Shown in pieces: positions 1-15,000 of a stretch of 64,000 nt of DNA; positions within the stretch are counted from its first letter, which is position 1, and each line of letters opens with the position of its first letter. Origin of the DNA: Octopus sinensis (Eukaryota); NCBI RefSeq assembly GCF_006345805.1, contig NC_042999.1, positions 75,206,001-75,270,000 on the forward strand. The letters are read 5' to 3'. Position numbers: made by a program.

Positions 1-3000
1 ATAAAAGGGCTTAGTAAAATAAATTACTTTGCCGCATACTGAACTCATTAGAAATAGCAGCTAAAAAACTTTTTTAAGGCTATTTCTAATACTTAAAGAA
101 AATCTCTCTCATATATAGTGTTTGCATAATTTAACTCACAAAAGTTTGGGGGTAATGACATCGAAAAATCAAATGCTAAGGTTATTCGAGAACGTACGTT
201 TCAAGATTAGTCAAAACAACATTTCTATCATCGGCTCGGAAATTCCTTGGTTTGGATTTGGAAACACTGAAAATAAGAACATACCCTCTCGAAGATCTGC
301 TCCCAACTAACAGTGTCAACAAATTCAAAATAAGCAAGCGAAGAATCTCTGTTCTCCCCTTTCCACCAGCGTGGGTTAAAATCATCAAACTCTATGCTTA
401 TTTCGGTAAAGTCCGAAGCATTAATCAGAGGGAGATTAATTATAATTTCAACAATTGAGGGCAAAATTAATTAATTATTAATCAATTTCACCAAGTGTTC
501 AGTATGCAAAGGGACCATTCAAGGCGAATTCAAATTATTACATTATATAAAAGGGCTTAGTAAAATAAATTACTTTGCCGCATACTGAACTCATTAGAAA
601 TAGCAGCTAAAAAACTTTTTTAAGGCTATTTCTAATACTTAAAGAAAATCTCTCTCATATATAGTGTTTGCATAATTTAACTCACAAAAGTTTGGGGGTA
701 ATGACATCGAAAAATCAAATGCTAAGGTTATTCGAGAACGTACGTTTCAAGATTAGTCAAAACAACATTTCTATCATCGGCTCGGAAATTCCTTGGTTTG
801 GATTTGGAAACACTGAAAATAAGAACATACCCTCTCGAAGATCTGCTCCCAACTAACAGTGTCAACAAATTCAAAATAAGCAAGCGAAGAATCTCTGTTC
901 TCCCCTTTCCACCAGCGTGGGTTAAAATCATCAAACTCTATGCTTATTTCGGTAAAGTCCGAAGCATTAATCAGAGGGAGATTAATTATAATTTCAACAA
1001 TTGAGGGCAAAATTAATTAATTATTAATCAATTTCACCAAGTGTTCAGTATGCAAAGGGACCATTCAAGGCGAATTCAAATTATTACATTATATAAAAGG
1101 GCTTAGTAAAATAAATTACTTTGCCGCATACTGAACTCATTAGAAATAGCAGCTAAAAAACTTTTTTAAGGCTATTTCTAATACTTAAAGAAAATCTCTC
1201 TCATATATAGTGTTTGCATAATTTAACTCACAAAAGTTTGGGGGTAATGACATCGAAAAATCAAATGCTAAGGTTATTCGAGAACGTACGTTTCAAGATT
1301 AGTCAAAACAACATTTCTATCATCGGCTCGGAAATTCCTTGGTTTGGATTTGGAAACACTGAAAATAAGAACATACCCTCTCGAAGATCTGCTCCCAACT
1401 AACAGTGTCAACAAATTCAAAATAAGCAAGCGAAGAATCTCTGTTCTCCCCTTTCCACCAGCGTGGGTTAAAATCATCAAACTCTATGCTTATTTCGGTA
1501 AAGTCCGAAGCATTAATCAGAGGGAGATTAATTATAATTTCAACAATTGAGGGCAAAATTAATTAATTATTAATCAATTTCACCAAGTGTTCAGTATGCA
1601 AAGGGACCATTCAAGGCGAATTCAAATTATTACATTATATAAAAGGGCTTAGTAAAATAAATTACTTTGCCGCATACTGAACTCATTAGAAATAGCAGCT
1701 AAAAAACTTTTTTAAGGCTATTTCTAATACTTAAAGAAAATCTCTCTCATATATAGTGTTTGCATAATTTAACTCACAAAAGTTTGGGGGTAATGACATC
1801 GAAAAATCAAATGCTAAGGTTATTCGAGAACGTACGTTTCAAGATTAGTCAAAACAACATTTCTATCATCGGCTCGGAAATTCCTTGGTTTGGATTTGGA
1901 AACACTGAAAATAAGAACATACCCTCTCGAAGATCTGCTCCCAACTAACAGTGTCAACAAATTCAAAATAAGCAAGCGAAGAATCTCTGTTCTCCCCTTC
2001 CCACCAGCGTGGGTTAAAATCATCAAACTCTATGCTTATTTCGGTAAAGTCCGAAGCATTAATCAGAGGGAGATTAATTATAATTTCAACAATTGAGGGC
2101 AAAATTAATTAATTATTAATCAATTTCACCAAGTGTTCAGTATGCAAAGGGACCATTCAAGGCGAATTCAAATTATTACATTATATAAAAGGGCTTAGTA
2201 AAATAAATTACTTTGCCGCATACTGAACTCATTAGAAATAGCAGCTAAAAAACTTTTTTAAGGCTATTTCTAATACTTAAAGAAAATCTCTCTCATATAT
2301 AGTGTTTGCATAATTTAACTCACAAAAGTTTGGGGGTAATGACATCGAAAAATCAAATGCTAAGGTTATTCGAGAACGTACGTTTCAAGATTAGTCAAAA
2401 CAACATTTCTATCATCGGCTCGGAAATTCCTTGGTTTGGATTTGGAAACACTGAAAATAAGAACATACCCTCTCGAAGATCTGCTCCCAACTAACAGTGT
2501 CAACAAATTCAAAATAAGCAAGCGAAGAATCTCTGTTCTCCCCTTTCCACCAGCGTGGGTTAAAATCATCAAACTCTATGCTTATTTCGGTAAAGTCCGA
2601 AGCATTAATCAGAGGGAGATTAATTATAATTTCAACAATTGAGGGCAAAATTAATTAATTATTAATCAATTTCACCAAGTGTTCAGTATGCAAAGGGACC
2701 ATTCAAGGCGAATTCAAATTATTACATTATATAAAAGGGCTTAGTAAAATAAATTACTTTGCCGATCTTCGAGATCTTACTTTGCAGATCTTCGAGAGGG
2801 TATGTTCTTATTTTCAGTGTTTCCAAATCCAAACCAAGGAATTTCCGAGCCGATGATAGAAATGTTGTTTTGACTAATCTTGAAACGTACGTTCTCGAAT
2901 AACCTTAGCATTTGATTTTTCGATGTCATTACCCCCAAACTTTTGTGAGTTAAATTATGCAAACACTATATATGAGAGAGATTTTCTTTAAGTATTAGAA

Positions 3001-12000: not shown

Positions 12001-15000
12001 TGGTTCCTATGTAAAAGAAGACTAATAACTGTGCAAGTGTCGTTGCTCTACTGCTATGGGAAGTGGGTCAGGGGCATTACTTATTGAATGCCCCTCGTAT
12101 ATATATATATATATATATATATATATATATATAAATAAGGGTTAAAGAAAATTATTTCTAGGCCAATATGCTGATAACAGACTTTTAAATCGTCAATTTC
12201 CACATATTATTTACTCGCTACAGAAAACACGTAGAGCTGATGTAAGTATCTTATTTATGTCTTTTCGTATTTTCTACTGAAGAGGAAAAAATCTATTTTG
12301 AGATTACTTCCGAAATAGTTTCAATATAGAAATAACGAACTTTTAAAAAAAATTCTATTGGCTGGCTTTCCTCGCTTTGAGCTCTACGTGTTTTTTGTAG
12401 CGAGTAAATAATATGTGGAAATTGACGATTTAAAAGTCTGCTATCAGCATATTGGCATAGAAATAATTTTTTTTTGGCCCTTATTTATAAGTTGTTTATA
12501 ATTTTAACCTTAAATGTATTTTAATGTGCTGCCACATTTTTTGATGGAATTTTTTTCTGTAAAAACAATTCATCCTATATTAGTAGTAAATTTATTACTA
12601 TTCGCTATAGGGACTGGTAACCACTATAAGCTGTAGTGGAGAACAGTTCACACGTGTGCTGAGGCTGACCGAAGGATTTTATTTTTAGATATATCTGGGC
12701 TACTTATATGTACTCATGATTTTTGTTTCGGCTTTTTTCTATGGGCGCATTTAAGTATCTTATTTATGTCTTTTCGTATTTTCTATAGAAGAGGAAAAAA
12801 ATCTATTATGAGATTAATTCCGAAATTGATTCAATATAGAAATAACGAACTTTTTTCAAAAATTCTATTGGTTGGCTTTCCTAGCTTTGAGCTCTACGTG
12901 TTTTCTGTAGCGAGTAAATAATGTGTGGAAATTGGCGATTTAAAAGTCTGTTATCAGCATGTTGTCAGAGAAATTATTTTCTTTAGTCCTTATTTATAAT
13001 TTTAACCTTAACATTTTGACCTTTTTTGATGGAATATTTTTCAGTAAAAAAACTTCATCCTATATAAGTAGTAGTAGTAGTAGTTATATATATAATATAT
13101 ATATATATATATATGTATATATATATATATATATATATATATATATATATATATATATATATATATATATATATATGCATGTATGTATATATATGTATTA
13201 CTCTCTTTTTTACTCTTTTTACTTGTTTCAGTCATTTGACTGCGGCCATGCTGGAGCACCGCCTTTGATATATATATATATATATATATATATATATATA
13301 TATATATTCACTCAAACACACACGCACACACACATATTTATATGTAAATTAACGCAATAAATATCTGATTGATAATAACTATTATCATGAATGTGCGGTG
13401 GTGGTGGGCGATAATAATTCACCGTTCTGTGATGGGAATATCTAAACTTCATGAGAGTGAAACGTTTTTTCGACACAATATAATTATTTACTATTTTATT
13501 CCTCTCCATTAAACACACTTGCGGCTGTGAACACTTTCTCCCTCTAGATACAGACAGACGTACAGAAAGAGTGAGGCGGTGGGAGAAAGAAAGACAGAGA
13601 GAGAAAGAGAGAGAGAGAGAGAGATTGGGAGCTGTCAAACGTCGTTATAGAGAGAATGTCGATGGAAAGGAGGAAAAAGAGAGATCGGGGAAGAAAGGGT
13701 GATAGTCGAAAGGGAGAATCAACAACATTTGTCAATTTAGCCAATCAACAGACAGCGTGGCATTAGCAGCTTGTTACTATGACAACCGCACACTGTGTTG
13801 TGGTTCACTGTTGTCTGTGGCGCTGTTGTCTACGTTGATTTTTCCGATTTGATGCTTCGCACCACGAGATTCTTTTCAACCGCATGTTTTGTTTTAATTT
13901 GTCTGTGTTAGTATATTACATATTTCCTCTGCTTCTATGTGATTCATTGACTCAAATAGCTGGATTTATGATTTCACGAGGTTAATTCTATTTATAAAAA
14001 ATTAAATTAGGAGTAGGGACATTGTGGAACAGAGAAACTATGGATGGTGCAGATAATCTGACATTACTTTTGAATTCTGCTTGCAATAACATGTAAGGTA
14101 CAGGTATTCTTTGGGACAAATTCTTTGTTGACGAGTGTTATTCTTACCATAGTTTACAAATCCAAGCATGAAAACAGTACTCAACTTTGGAGTTTTGGAG
14201 ATGGATGTTCCCTTTTCACACACACACACACACACACACACACACACGCACGTACACACACTTATATATTAATGATGTACACAAACACATGACAGGTATA
14301 CATATTTCTGAAATATGCATAAAGTAAACATATTAAGACAAATATATTGATATAAGATTTTTTTTTAAATCATAAAAAACAATAAAATCAATGACGAGAC
14401 AAAAGAAACAGTAAGATTATATGTGTTAATTTTATTAGCTTTTATGTTTATTTAGAAACCTTCAATGAAATTTGGTATTTCTATTTATTTAAGAAACCTA
14501 CAATGAACATGACAGACGCTAAACTATAGATTTTACTGGGTGCAACCTTAAAGTTGACATCGCTCCGCTAAGTGCAGAAGATTTCTGTCTCTCTATTGAC
14601 TAAAAATACCCAGTTTTTTTTATTTTTAAACCTCTGTAACTTTTTTCTCCAAGTTTTCTTTCCACAACATCATGACTTCAAAGCAATGAGACTGGAGGGC
14701 TATATTATTATAGCCGATTTTCAGATTTTTTTTTACTTCTTTTTAAAAAATGCATATTTTGCTGATGCAGAAACCTAGATCCTGATACACCTGAACAGAC
14801 TTAGATCACTACAGAAACATTATTGCGATAATAGGTATAAAAACACTTAGAGCCATCAGATAATACATATCTATGCGTAAATTTTATTTCCTTTTTAGAG
14901 GGGTATATGATAAAATAATATAATGTTTATGTAGAAAAACAAACATAACTGCTCAAGCAAAATAGGTGTATGCTGCATGTGGGTTTGTAGAGAGTTCATT

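What the first reader, a model, noticed from the sequence alone, without database searches (positions are those of the whole stretch)
1..13065. Three hammerhead-ribozyme tandem elements sharing one architecture: a (TA)n-targeting, retrozyme-like system
Seen: three families with no evident mutual similarity (546 bp at 1-3634; 487 bp at 7372-10324; ~500 bp at 3729-4656 and its copies). Each has (i) one type I hammerhead motif per unit, (ii) head-to-tail units with no credible ORF, (iii) an inverted partial copy at the 5' end relative to ribozyme sense, and (iv) (TA)n at the inverted end. Units also contain strong hairpins, e.g. 47-58/79-90, 497-507/580-590 spanning the unit junction, and 7389-7423. 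Established: non-LTR retrozymes are hammerhead-bearing tandem repeats that yield circular RNAs, and Penelope-like elements carry hammerheads, make inverted 5' ends and favour AT-rich targets. Inference: these apparent satellites are non-autonomous circRNA retroelements mobilised by a Penelope RT, with monomers longer than the ~150-400 nt usual for animal retrozymes. I cannot confirm that these families are undescribed.
Basis: partly seen in the sequence, partly recalled or inferred. Interest (0 to 1): 0.9.

Follow-up and report, generated by a model that had tools for sequence, protein, structure and literature searches.

The report
Hammerhead-bearing tandem retroelements inserted in (TA)n
Three unrelated half-kilobase repeat arrays in an animal genome look like non-coding "retrozyme" retroelements carrying hammerhead-ribozyme-like motifs and the insertion footprint of Penelope-like elements, which is a new example of a known kind, not a new kind.

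Summary
The repeat architecture is real. Three unrelated non-coding families (A 546 bp, B 487 bp, C about 510 bp) each form head-to-tail units. Each has an inverted truncated copy at one end, and every visible array end abuts (TA)n.

The hammerhead claim holds only in part:
- No Rfam hammerhead model matches, even at E<=10 on single units.
- My own type I descriptor finds one motif per family, always on the strand that puts the inverted copy 5'.
- B has a perfect core in 5 of 6 copies and an 8-bp helix I. Its helix II carries a 68-nt insertion.
- C has a perfect core in only one of its two units.
- A has CCGAUGA, a deviation at core position 4.
- Shuffled units gave such motifs in 0.5-1.75% of trials.

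New evidence: a paralogous palindrome arm keeps an empty (TA)24 site with the same flanks as array B, so B is an insertion into (TA)n. The "copies" of C are multi-kb segmental duplicates, not independent insertions.

Tandem units, an inverted 5'-truncated copy and a (TA)n target are the published Penelope-like-element footprint. Published retrozyme consensus lengths span 51-972 bp, so monomer length is not unusual.

Best reading: new retrozyme-like families moved by a (TA)n-targeting Penelope-like element. Cleavage, circles and the RT are untested.

The parts
1..2764 (-). Family A main array: 5.06 head-to-tail units of 546 bp, open at the window start. The motif-bearing sense is the minus strand.
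   Evidence: One variable column in 546.
2754..2797 (.). A inversion junction. A 23-bp stutter (1.9 copies) alternates main-copy and inverted-copy sequence. The breakpoint lies at the palindrome AGATCT.
   Evidence: period 23, 95% matches; sequence.
2784..3634 (+). A inverted copy: 851 bp (1.56 units), 0 mismatches to unit 1. Its outer end meets (TA)n at ...CCCTTTTATATAA.
733..784 (-). A hammerhead-like motif: cgag CCGAUGA U-AGA..UCU-U GAA ACGUACGU U ctcg. Other copies lie at 187-238, 1279-1330, 1825-1876 and 2371-2422 (minus) and at 2846-2897 and 3392-3443 (plus). The predicted cleavage is 3' of minus-strand base 737, repeating every 546 bases.
   Evidence: Core position 4 is C instead of U. 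Helix III is an 8-nt perfect palindrome.
3627..3704 (.). (TA)39 between the inverted end of A and the 3' end of C. It is followed by (TAC)n up to about 3725.
3729..4548 (-). Family C, copy 1: 1.6 units of about 510 bp, about 90% alike. The motif sense is the minus strand.
4459..4520 (-). C hammerhead-like motif with a perfect core: tttcta CUGAAGA GGAA..UUCC GAA AUAGUUUCAAU A tagaaa. Paralogous copies lie at 12271-12332 (plus) and 19548-19609 (minus). The sister unit (core at 3992-4013, 12779-12800 and 19080-19101) reads UAGAAGA.
4549..4653 (+). C inverted truncated copy of about 105 bp. Its inner breakpoint lies in the palindrome GAGCTC.
   Evidence: arms 4304-4411 and 4553-4660, 95% complementary.
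4654..4713 (.). (TA)30 at the inverted end of C.
7319..7374 (.). (TA)28 at the 3' end of B, in motif sense.
7372..9983 (-). Family B main array: 5.36 units of 487 bp, 98.9-99.3% alike. The motif sense is the minus strand.
   Evidence: 13 variable columns.
7598..7704 (-). B hammerhead-like motif: auuucuua CUGAUGA U-UCUA[60 nt]UAGA-U GAA ACGGUG(A/C)AUCGU A uaagaaau. Other copies lie at 8088-8188 (helix I only 5 bp), 8572-8678, 9059-9165 (core CUGAUAA) and 9546-9652 (minus), and at 10096-10202 (plus). The predicted cleavage is 3' of minus-strand base 7606, repeating every 487 bases.
9982..10324 (+). B inverted truncated copy: 343 bp, the reverse complement of unit 7476-7818. It has private variants of its own.
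10323..10427 (.). (AT)52 at the inverted end of B.
12098..13198 (+). Family C, copy 2, lying inside an inverted segmental duplicate. Order: (TA)n 12098-12137, inverted piece about 12134-12238, units 12239-13066, (AGT)n, (TA)n 13085-13198.
18757..19785 (-). Family C, copy 3, lying inside a direct segmental duplicate.
21552..21599 (.). Paralogous empty site for B: (TA)24 between the same two flanks that surround B.

Best explanation
A, B and C are three unrelated families of non-coding, AT-rich retroelements of the non-LTR retrozyme type. They are probably derived from, and moved by, a Penelope-like element (PLE) whose endonuclease prefers (TA)n.

Proposed mechanism (all steps are inferred unless marked as shown):
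1. A multimeric transcript of the G+U-rich strand carries one type I hammerhead per unit.
2. The short self-complementary helix III lets two tandem motifs pair as a dimer and cut out unit-length RNA, which can be circularised.
3. A PLE reverse transcriptase with GIY-YIG endonuclease nicks a (TA)n tract. It primes on UA-rich sites of the circular or multimeric RNA and copies it round and round. This would give several near-identical head-to-tail units.
4. A template switch at a short palindrome produces the inverted 5'-truncated copy on the 5' side.

Shown here: the architecture, the motifs and their common polarity, the TA-like sequence at the element ends, and the insertion of B into a (TA)n tract that is still empty in the paralogous arm.

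B looks young and possibly active. A is young but has an altered core. C is old (its units are 90% alike) and half dead.
For: 1. Motifs.
- A relaxed type I descriptor gave 17 hits on both strands of the 64-kb window. Of these, 16 lie in the three families (7 in A, 6 in B, 3 in C) and 1 lies elsewhere.
- 40 dinucleotide shuffles of the window gave a mean of 0.525 hits, and 0.025 with a perfect core.
- Shuffled units gave a hit in 7 of 400 trials (A), 2 of 400 (B) and 2 of 400 (C).
- A stricter descriptor written beforehand found only C (3 hits).

2. Features that the descriptor did not ask for.
- Helix III is self-complementary in A (ACGUACGU, self-duplex -9.8 kcal/mol) and in 4 of 6 B copies (ACGGUGCAUCGU, -17.5).
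- A and B have an unpaired U at the base of helix II.
- Cervera and de la Pena 2014 (PMC4209133, passages) describe metazoan and PLE hammerheads with a short palindromic helix III that act as dimers. [quoted passage not shown]
- A U-U mismatch at the base of helix II is reported for an axolotl retrozyme hammerhead (PMC7229834, passages).

3. Polarity. In 3 of 3 families the motif strand puts the inverted copy on the 5' side. That same strand is G+T-rich (0.546, 0.591 and 0.578). It also folds 21, 38 and 40 kcal/mol better than its complement (against 49-51). The z-scores for the motif strand are -4.5, -6.1 and -3.6.

4. For B the hammerhead fold is only 1.9 kcal/mol above the minimum free energy (-25.8 against -27.7). 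Helix I also forms in the minimum-energy fold of the whole monomer.

5. Insertion. On the minus strand the filled site reads ...gggtacgtacgccgc-(TA)n-[B]-(TA)n-aaaacaaactgtgacaaaaacgc.... The paralogous arm reads ...gggtacgtacgccgc-(TA)24-aaaaacaaactgtgacaaaaacgc....

6. All 5 visible element ends abut (TA)n. Four of them end in TA-like sequence: TTATATAA, TTATTTATA or CCTTATATA, CCTATATA, and AATTAT.

7. Literature. PLE insertions are partial tandems with an inverted 5'-truncated copy at the 5' end, and Naiads prefer (TA)n (PMC8557442, passages). Retrozymes are proposed to be non-autonomous PLE derivatives, with consensus lengths of 51-972 bp (preprint 10.64898/2026.07.22.740005).

8. The units have low GC (0.33, 0.37, 0.31) and no credible ORF.
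Against: - No Rfam hammerhead model matches, even at E<=10 on stretches under 1 kb.
- My relaxed descriptor was written after I had seen the A and B candidates, so its chance estimates are optimistic.
- A's core is CCGAUGA, and position 4 is part of the conserved core. Its hammerhead fold is +0.4 kcal/mol against a minimum of -7.3. C's is -3.7 against -11.6.
- C has one intact core in two units. One B copy has CUGAUAA.
- B's helix II carries a 68-nt insertion, and I found no example of that size in the passages I read.
- The outer end of the inverted copy does not coincide with the 3' end of the main copy: the offset is 104 nt in B and about 100 nt in C. A simple PLE model with a shared 3' end would not predict this. 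I also saw no 30-40-bp 'tail'.
- (TA)n is very dense here: 26 perfect tracts covering 4.9% of the first 24 kb. The locus is full of palindromic rearrangements whose breakpoints lie at (TA)n.
- The single empty site could in principle be a deletion between two (TA)n tracts.
- No PLE reverse transcriptase or GIY-YIG domain appeared among the 8 ORFs I scanned. These were picked from the 34 stop-to-stop ORFs of 110 aa or more. The one RT is a LINE-type RVT_1 plus PHD.
- No other copies from this genome could be examined, because no eukaryotic DNA collection was available.
- No RNA data were available.
Confidence: 0.62

Rival explanations
1. The units are not independent non-autonomous families. 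They are the terminal (pseudo-LTR or 3' UTR) parts of autonomous Penelope-like elements found elsewhere in the genome. They were inserted here as heavily 5'-truncated copies and then amplified locally into arrays by unequal exchange.
For: PLE insertions are usually 5'-truncated and carry hammerheads in their pseudo-LTRs (PMC8557442 and PMC4209133, passages). Li et al. 2026 propose exactly this origin, followed by local amplification (Discussion passages). The footprint seen here is the PLE one.
Against: The arrays repeat with an exact unit period of 546 or 487 bp. Units are 99-100% identical, including the inverted copy. That fits one copying event on a unit-length or multimeric template better than slow local amplification. 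No PLE coding remnant adjoins any array.
Confidence: 0.15
2. These are ordinary minisatellite or satellite arrays. The inverted segments and (TA)n flanks result from palindrome-prone, (TA)n-mediated DNA rearrangement, and the hammerhead-like motifs are fortuitous.
For: The locus is a nest of palindromes and inversions bounded by (TA)n. For example, segment 6399-7368 is inverted relative to 21552-22532 between two (TA)n tracts, and 13162-15432 mirrors 18793-16486. (TA)n covers 4.9% of the first 24 kb. Rfam finds no hammerhead.
Against: Chance motifs are rare: 0.5-1.75% per shuffled unit and 1 hit in 46.9 kb of real background. All three unrelated families nevertheless have one, on the strand predicted by the PLE rule (3 of 3). 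They also show self-complementary helix III and G+U-rich strand asymmetry. B has a clean empty site.
Confidence: 0.12
3. The arrays move at the DNA level. Extrachromosomal circular DNA from a satellite is copied by rolling circle and re-integrated at fragile (TA)n, or a Helitron/Helentron-type element carries the tandem repeats.
For: Helitrons insert between A and T, and a Pif1-helicase (Helitron-like) remnant lies at 31056-32345. Near-identical tandem units fit rolling-circle copying of a circle of either nucleic acid.
Against: Neither strand of B shows 5'-TC...CTRR-3' ends or a CTRR|TC unit junction. The minus strand starts TCACAA but ends ...GATTAATTAT (the end rule is recalled, not from a call). 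The helicase remnant is more than 20 kb away. This model needs neither the hammerhead motif nor the strand asymmetry, yet both are present.
Confidence: 0.08

Closest known systems
Metazoan non-LTR retrozymes (Cervera and de la Pena 2020, PMC7229834; Li, Clavereau and Pollet 2026 preprint 10.64898/2026.07.22.740005)
   Same: [quoted passage not shown] Helix III is short and palindromic, implying cleavage by a dimer. A U-U mismatch at the base of helix II is known in axolotl. Unit lengths fall within the reported 51-972 bp.
   Different: No Rfam model matches. B's helix II holds a 68-nt insertion and A's core has C at position 4. In the passages I read, these papers do not describe an inverted 5' copy or a (TA)n target for retrozyme arrays. 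'Inverted' and 'microsatellite' each occur 0 times in PMC7229834, and only in unrelated contexts in the preprint. Expression as circles is not tested here.
Penelope-like elements, especially the (TA)n-targeting Naiad and Neptune clades (Craig et al. 2021, PMC8557442)
   Same: Partial tandems, an inverted 5'-truncated copy adjacent at the 5' end, insertion into (TA)n with no discernible target-site duplication, and hammerheads in the terminal repeats of most PLE clades.
   Different: The units here have no RT or GIY-YIG ORF. They are 0.5 kb rather than 3-4 kb. I saw no 30-40-bp tail. The outer end of the inverted copy is about 100 nt away from the 3' end of the main copy. Naiads themselves are reported to lack canonical hammerheads.
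Minimal PLE hammerheads (Cervera and de la Pena 2014, PMC4209133)
   Same: [quoted passage not shown]
   Different: B and C have longer helix I (8 and 6 bp). Helix II here is interrupted or greatly extended, whereas the published form is a compact 6-8 bp.
Newt satellite 2 and Schistosoma Sm-alpha hammerhead satellites
   Same: Tandem genomic repeats that encode type I hammerheads acting as dimers (PMC6155905, passages).
   Different: Those motifs are the basis of the Rfam type I model, which does not match here. No sequence comparison was possible.

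Membership tests
Hammerhead ribozyme, type I | Conserved core: CUGANGA, then GAAA, then U-H at the cleavage site | tested here: inconclusive
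   Met in B (5 of 6 copies; one reads CUGAUAA). Met in one of C's two units (3 intact and 3 dead over three paralogous copies). Not met in A, where all 7 copies read CCGAUGA.
Hammerhead ribozyme, type I | Three helices around the core, with helix I open (type I order) | tested here: met
   Helix I is 4, 8 and 6 bp in A, B and C. The base of helix II is 3, 4 and 4 bp (with a U-U pair in A and B). Helix III is 2, 4 and 2 bp. The constrained fold against the minimum is +0.4/-7.3 (A), -25.8/-27.7 (B) and -3.7/-11.6 (C) kcal/mol. The descriptor is my own and partly post hoc.
Hammerhead ribozyme, type I | Match to the curated covariance models (Rfam hammerhead families) | tested here: not met
   0 matches at gathering score in the window. 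No hammerhead family at E<=10 in 1-13500 or in the single units 1-700, 7380-8000 and 3730-4650.
Hammerhead ribozyme, type I | Site-specific self-cleavage | not testable with these tools
   Needs in vitro transcription of monomer and dimer constructs.
Non-LTR retrozyme | Head-to-tail tandem repeats of tens to hundreds of bp, non-coding, low GC | tested here: met
   Units of 546, 487 and about 510 bp. GC is 0.33, 0.37 and 0.31. No ORF with a Pfam match.
Non-LTR retrozyme | [quoted passage not shown] 2026, Methods) | tested here: inconclusive
   B meets it by my descriptor (consecutive intact copies at 7598-7704, 8088-8188 and 8572-8678). A meets it only if the C4 core is accepted. C does not: an intact unit sits next to a dead one. 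Their rnabob models were not available to me.
Non-LTR retrozyme | Expressed as unit-length linear and circular RNA | not testable with these tools
   No transcriptome data were available.
Penelope-like element insertion footprint | Partial tandem plus an inverted 5'-truncated copy adjacent at the 5' end | tested here: met
   3 of 3 families, relative to the motif-bearing strand.
Penelope-like element insertion footprint | Insertion into (TA)n microsatellite (Naiad/Neptune preference) | tested here: met
   All 5 visible ends abut (TA)n. The empty site (TA)24 at 21552-21599 has the same flanks as B. Caveat: (TA)n is dense in this locus.
Penelope-like element insertion footprint | A 30-40-bp 'tail' extension at one end | tested here: not met
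   Unit sequence of B runs directly into (TA)n at both ends when compared with the empty site. The published text says the tail is 'often' present, so it is not obligatory.
Penelope-like element (autonomous) | ORF encoding a PLE reverse transcriptase and a GIY-YIG endonuclease | tested here: not met
   No ORF of 60 aa or more with a family match lies in the arrays. Of the 34 window ORFs of 110 aa or more, 8 were scanned. The only RT is RVT_1 plus PHD, which is LINE-like. The arrays are therefore at most non-autonomous.
Helitron/Helentron-borne tandem repeats | 5'-TC ... CTRR-3' termini with a subterminal hairpin, and insertion between A and T | tested here: not met
   The ends of B are TCACAATC... 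and ...GATTAATTAT on the minus strand, and AATTAATC... and ...GATTGTGA on the plus strand. There is no CTRR. The terminal rule is recalled, not taken from a call.

The most novel reading that the evidence does not exclude
These arrays could be the first case in which retrozyme-type tandem elements are caught with the full integration footprint of a Penelope-like element: an inverted 5'-truncated copy, a (TA)n target, TA-microhomology at the ends and a clean paralogous empty site. That would turn the co-occurrence argument for PLE-driven retrozyme mobility into structural evidence. Their hammerheads have a 68-nt helix II insertion (B) or a C4 core with an 8-nt palindromic helix III (A). If these are nevertheless active as dimers, surveys based on Rfam models or standard descriptors would be missing a substantial class of retrozymes.
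Probability: 0.3. Interest if true: 0.65.

Novelty: new member of a known kind. Interest (0 to 1): 0.5.

Why it matters
How animal retrozymes get into DNA is still argued from two lines: co-occurrence with Penelope-like elements, and similarity to their terminal repeats. Arrays that carry the PLE insertion footprint, one of them with a preserved empty site, give concrete features to score genome-wide. Those features are the polarity of the inverted copy, the (TA)n flanks and the TA-microhomology at the ends.

The motifs also escape Rfam. If they cleave, current counts of retrozymes are too low.

If they do not cleave, the result is still useful. It would show that PLE-type machinery can spread half-kilobase 'satellites' into (TA)n tracts, which would explain some apparent satellite DNA.

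Tried and rejected
1. Rfam at gathering score and at E<=10. No hammerhead or other ribozyme family appeared. The hits were microRNA models on (TA)n and weak noise.

2. A strict descriptor (perfect core, closed helix II) found only C. I then relaxed it, and this step is post hoc.

3. Cross-family similarity by blastn with word size 7. Nothing convincing appeared, so I dropped the idea of a shared 3' recognition sequence.

4. Search for dispersed fragments of A, B or C elsewhere in the window. All 34 hits lie inside the arrays and their duplicates.

5. The 67-aa ORF of A has no Pfam family, so I treat it as spurious.

6. Host taxon. The Atlas look-up of the LINE RT gave only mixed animal phyla (Cnidaria, Mollusca, Nematomorpha). 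I did not pursue it.

7. Helitron ends were inspected by eye and rejected.

8. Assembly fold-back artefact. I rejected this because the large arms differ by 1-3%, the inverted copy of B has private variants, and unique sequence continues beyond each inverted part.

9. Strand-specific z-scores separate the strands only for C (-3.6 against -1.3). For A and B both strands beat their shuffles, so I rely on the absolute energies and the G+U bias.

NOT CHECKED
- Other copies in this genome, any PLE in this genome, and any RNA data.
- ORFs below 110 aa outside the arrays were not scanned for PLE remnants.
- Supplementary files were not opened. These include the Naiad consensus file of PMC8557442, the hammerhead figures of PMC7229834 and PMC4209133, and the tables of the 2026 preprint. 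They might show similar motifs or families.
- Lunse, Weinberg and Breaker 2017 is not held. I saw only its citation.
- What I say about mutational tolerance at core position 4 is recalled, not read.
- That the inverted-copy and (TA)n footprint is not in print for retrozymes rests only on searches and on the term counts.

Full report
WHAT IS THERE

The first 13 kb of the window holds three tandem-repeat families.

- Family A is a 546-bp unit repeated 5.06 times at 1-2764, and it runs off the window start. After a 20-bp junction, 851 bp of the same repeat follow in reverse complement (2784-3634). This stretch has no mismatch to unit 1. Only one of 546 columns varies among the direct units.
- Family B is a 487-bp unit repeated 5.36 times at 7372-9983, followed by 343 bp in reverse complement (9982-10324, the reverse complement of unit positions 7476-7818). 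There are 13 variable columns, some private to the inverted copy.
- Family C has two units about 510 bp apart and about 90% alike at 3729-4548, plus an inverted piece of about 105 bp.

Every visible array end abuts (TA)n. The families share no convincing similarity. None has a credible ORF. The window has no N. It is animal DNA, with sulfotransferase exons, mariner copies, a Pif1/Helitron remnant and a LINE RT.

A CORRECTION TO THE OBSERVATION

The 'copies' of C are not separate insertions. A self-comparison shows that 3627-6479 recurs inverted at 13167-10330 (96.9%) and direct at 18757-21141 (97.3%). In addition, 13162-15432 mirrors 18793-16486. The locus is a set of nested palindromes several kb long, and C was copied passively with them. 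C therefore counts as one event.

THE HAMMERHEAD CLAIM

Rfam gives nothing. There are 0 matches at gathering score in the whole window. There is no hammerhead among 89 matches at E<=10 in 1-13500. There is none among the 5, 3 and 3 matches in single units.

CTGANGA occurs once in unit B, once in C and not at all in A.

A strict descriptor of my own found only C. I then relaxed it, after having seen the candidates. The relaxed version allows:
- one core mismatch;
- an optional mismatch at the base of helix II;
- helix II of up to 80 nt;
- helix III of at least 2 bp closed by A-U;
- helix I of at least 4 bp.

This gave 17 hits on both strands of the window. Of these, 16 are in the three families and 1 is elsewhere, at 58345.

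Shuffle controls:
- Forty dinucleotide shuffles of the window gave a mean of 0.525 hits, or 0.025 with a perfect core.
- Shuffled units gave a hit in 7, 2 and 2 of 400 trials for A, B and C.

So a hammerhead-like motif in each of three unrelated units is not chance, even allowing for the post hoc descriptor.

Quality differs between the families.
- B has a perfect core in 5 of 6 copies, an 8-bp helix I and a 4-bp helix III. Its constrained fold is only 1.9 kcal/mol above the minimum. However, helix II holds a 68-nt insertion above a U-U pair.
- C has a perfect core and a regular helix II in one unit. The sister unit reads UAGAAGA, and this is so in all three paralogous copies.
- A reads CCGAUGA in all 7 copies, and its helices are weak (+0.4 against -7.3 kcal/mol).

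Two features that the descriptor did not ask for speak for real hammerheads of the animal/PLE type.
- Helix III is self-complementary: ACGUACGU in A, and ACGGUGCAUCGU in 4 of 6 B copies. The self-duplex energies are -9.8 and -17.5 kcal/mol.
- A and B have an unpaired U at the base of helix II.

Cervera and de la Pena 2014 (passages) describe exactly such short palindromic helices III, cleavage as dimers, a bulged base at helix II and rare core changes. A U-U base of helix II is reported for an axolotl retrozyme.

POLARITY AND RNA STRUCTURE

In all three families the motif lies on the strand that places the inverted copy at its 5' side. That strand is G+T-rich in all three (0.546, 0.591, 0.578). 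It also folds far better than its complement:
- A: -138.9 against -118.1 kcal/mol;
- B: -149.9 against -111.4;
- C: -119.9 against -80.0.

The z-scores for the motif strand are -4.5, -6.1 and -3.6. For A and B the complementary strand also beats its shuffles (z -3.95 and -6.95). The z-scores therefore separate the strands only for C (-1.28).

INSERTION EVIDENCE

Because the locus is a palindrome, the arm without B serves as an empty site. Read on the minus strand, the filled arm is ...gggtacgtacgccgc-(TA)n-[inverted copy + 5.36 units]-(TA)n-aaaacaaactgtgacaaaaacgc.... The other arm (21470-21700) is ...gggtacgtacgccgc-(TA)24-aaaaacaaactgtgacaaaaacgc....

B therefore entered a (TA)n tract after the arms had duplicated. 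The arms are 96-98% alike, while B's units are about 99% alike.

Other details of the ends and junctions:
- Four of the five visible ends finish in TA-like sequence.
- The inversion breakpoints lie at short palindromes: AGATCT in A (with a 23-bp stutter at 2754-2797) and GAGCTC in C.
- In B the breakpoint lies at an inverted microhomology, CAAATAA against CAAAATAA.

For A the far end is outside the window. I can only say that the two paralogous copies continue from the same (TA)n into other sequence (13199 onward), where copy 1 has array A.

COMPARISON WITH WHAT IS KNOWN

Craig et al. 2021 (passages) state three things about Penelope-like insertions:
- they are often partial tandems;
- they often have an inverted 5'-truncated copy adjacent at the 5' end;
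- Naiads show a strong bias for (TA)n, which hides target-site duplications.

Cervera and de la Pena 2020 and the 2020 review (passages) define animal non-LTR retrozymes as low-GC tandem repeats with type I hammerheads. They name PLEs as the likely mobilisers. Li et al. 2026 (abstract, Results part 1, Methods section 5 and passages) derive retrozymes from PLE terminal repeats and report consensus lengths of 51-972 bp.

One thing I did not find in the texts I could read: a description of retrozyme arrays that themselves carry the inverted 5' copy and the (TA)n target (term counts; searches). Supplements were closed, and one relevant paper is not held.

MECHANISM

The best reading is that these are non-autonomous retrozyme-like elements integrated by a (TA)n-targeting PLE. 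The proposed steps are:
1. transcription of the G+U-rich strand;
2. cleavage by hammerhead dimers;
3. circularisation;
4. target-primed reverse transcription from a nicked (TA)n onto UA-rich sites of a circular or multimeric template, which yields several near-identical units;
5. a template switch at a short palindrome, which makes the inverted 5' copy.

Only the DNA footprint is shown here. The RNA steps and the enzyme are inferred.

Points that do not fit neatly:
- the outer end of the inverted copy lies about 100 nt from the 3' end of the main copy in B and in C;
- there is no 'tail';
- there is no PLE in the window;
- A has an altered core;
- (TA)n is very dense at this rearrangement-prone locus (4.9% of the first 24 kb).

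RIVALS

I considered three alternatives:
- truncated terminal parts of autonomous PLEs, amplified locally;
- plain satellites reshaped by (TA)n-mediated rearrangement;
- DNA-level rolling-circle or Helitron-type spread.

The first is a close variant of the main reading and cannot be excluded without the genome. The other two do not explain why three unrelated units all carry a rare motif on the predicted strand.

VERDICT

These are probably new families of a known kind. The useful additions are the empty site and the PLE footprint. Interest is moderate, at 0.5.

Noticed in passing
window 3627-22566: Nested palindromes and segmental duplicates. 3627-6479 equals the reverse complement of 10330-13167 (96.9%) and equals 18757-21141 (97.3%). 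13162-15432 mirrors 18793-16486 (96.7-99.1%), with a centre near 15.4-16.5 kb. Many breakpoints lie at (TA)n.
   Followed up: partly
window 6399-7368 versus 21552-22532: A segment of about 970 bp bounded by (TA)n on both sides is inverted between the two palindrome arms (97.8% identity). This suggests inversion by exchange between self-complementary (TA)n tracts.
   Followed up: partly
window 5654-6101 versus 6913-7374: Inverted repeats of about 450 bp (89-91% identity) flank about 800 bp. The (TA)n tracts 5481-5712 and 7319-7374 overlap their outer ends. This may be a foldback-like element.
   Followed up: no
window 4711-5446, 11364-12100, 19822-20558, 23877-25106: Mariner-like copies with terminal inverted repeats. 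The copy at 23877-25106 is the fullest, with a Transposase_1/DDE_3 ORF at 24001-24447.
   Followed up: partly
window 27976-28641, 44835-45281: Two sulfotransferase-domain exons (Pfam Sulfotransfer_1, E 4e-14 and 2e-19). They suggest a tandem sulfotransferase gene pair.
   Followed up: no
window 31056-32345: Pif1 helicase fragments (PIF1 and Pif1_2B_dom), probably a Helitron remnant.
   Followed up: no
window 54152-55492 and 34645-35822: Two copies, 80% alike, of a LINE-type reverse transcriptase followed by a PHD finger. The nearest Atlas clusters come from mixed invertebrate phyla. This is not a Penelope-type RT.
   Followed up: partly
window 27123-27395, 53550-53998, and dispersed copies near 36064, 47683, 49784, 50300, 53384 and 60401: A GC-rich 63-66-bp tandem or SINE-like repeat recurs at least eight times.
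   Followed up: no
window 58345-58456 (+): The only relaxed hammerhead-descriptor hit outside the three families. Its core is CTGCGGA and its helix II spans 76 nt. It is probably chance.
   Followed up: no
window 7372-7606 and 12836-13066: In both B and C the 3' end of the element lies about 230 nt downstream of the predicted cleavage site (234 and about 230 nt). This may be coincidence.
   Followed up: no
window 9807-9983: The partial B unit next to the inversion junction has 5 private substitutions in 177 bp. The full units have 0-3 each in 487 bp.
   Followed up: no
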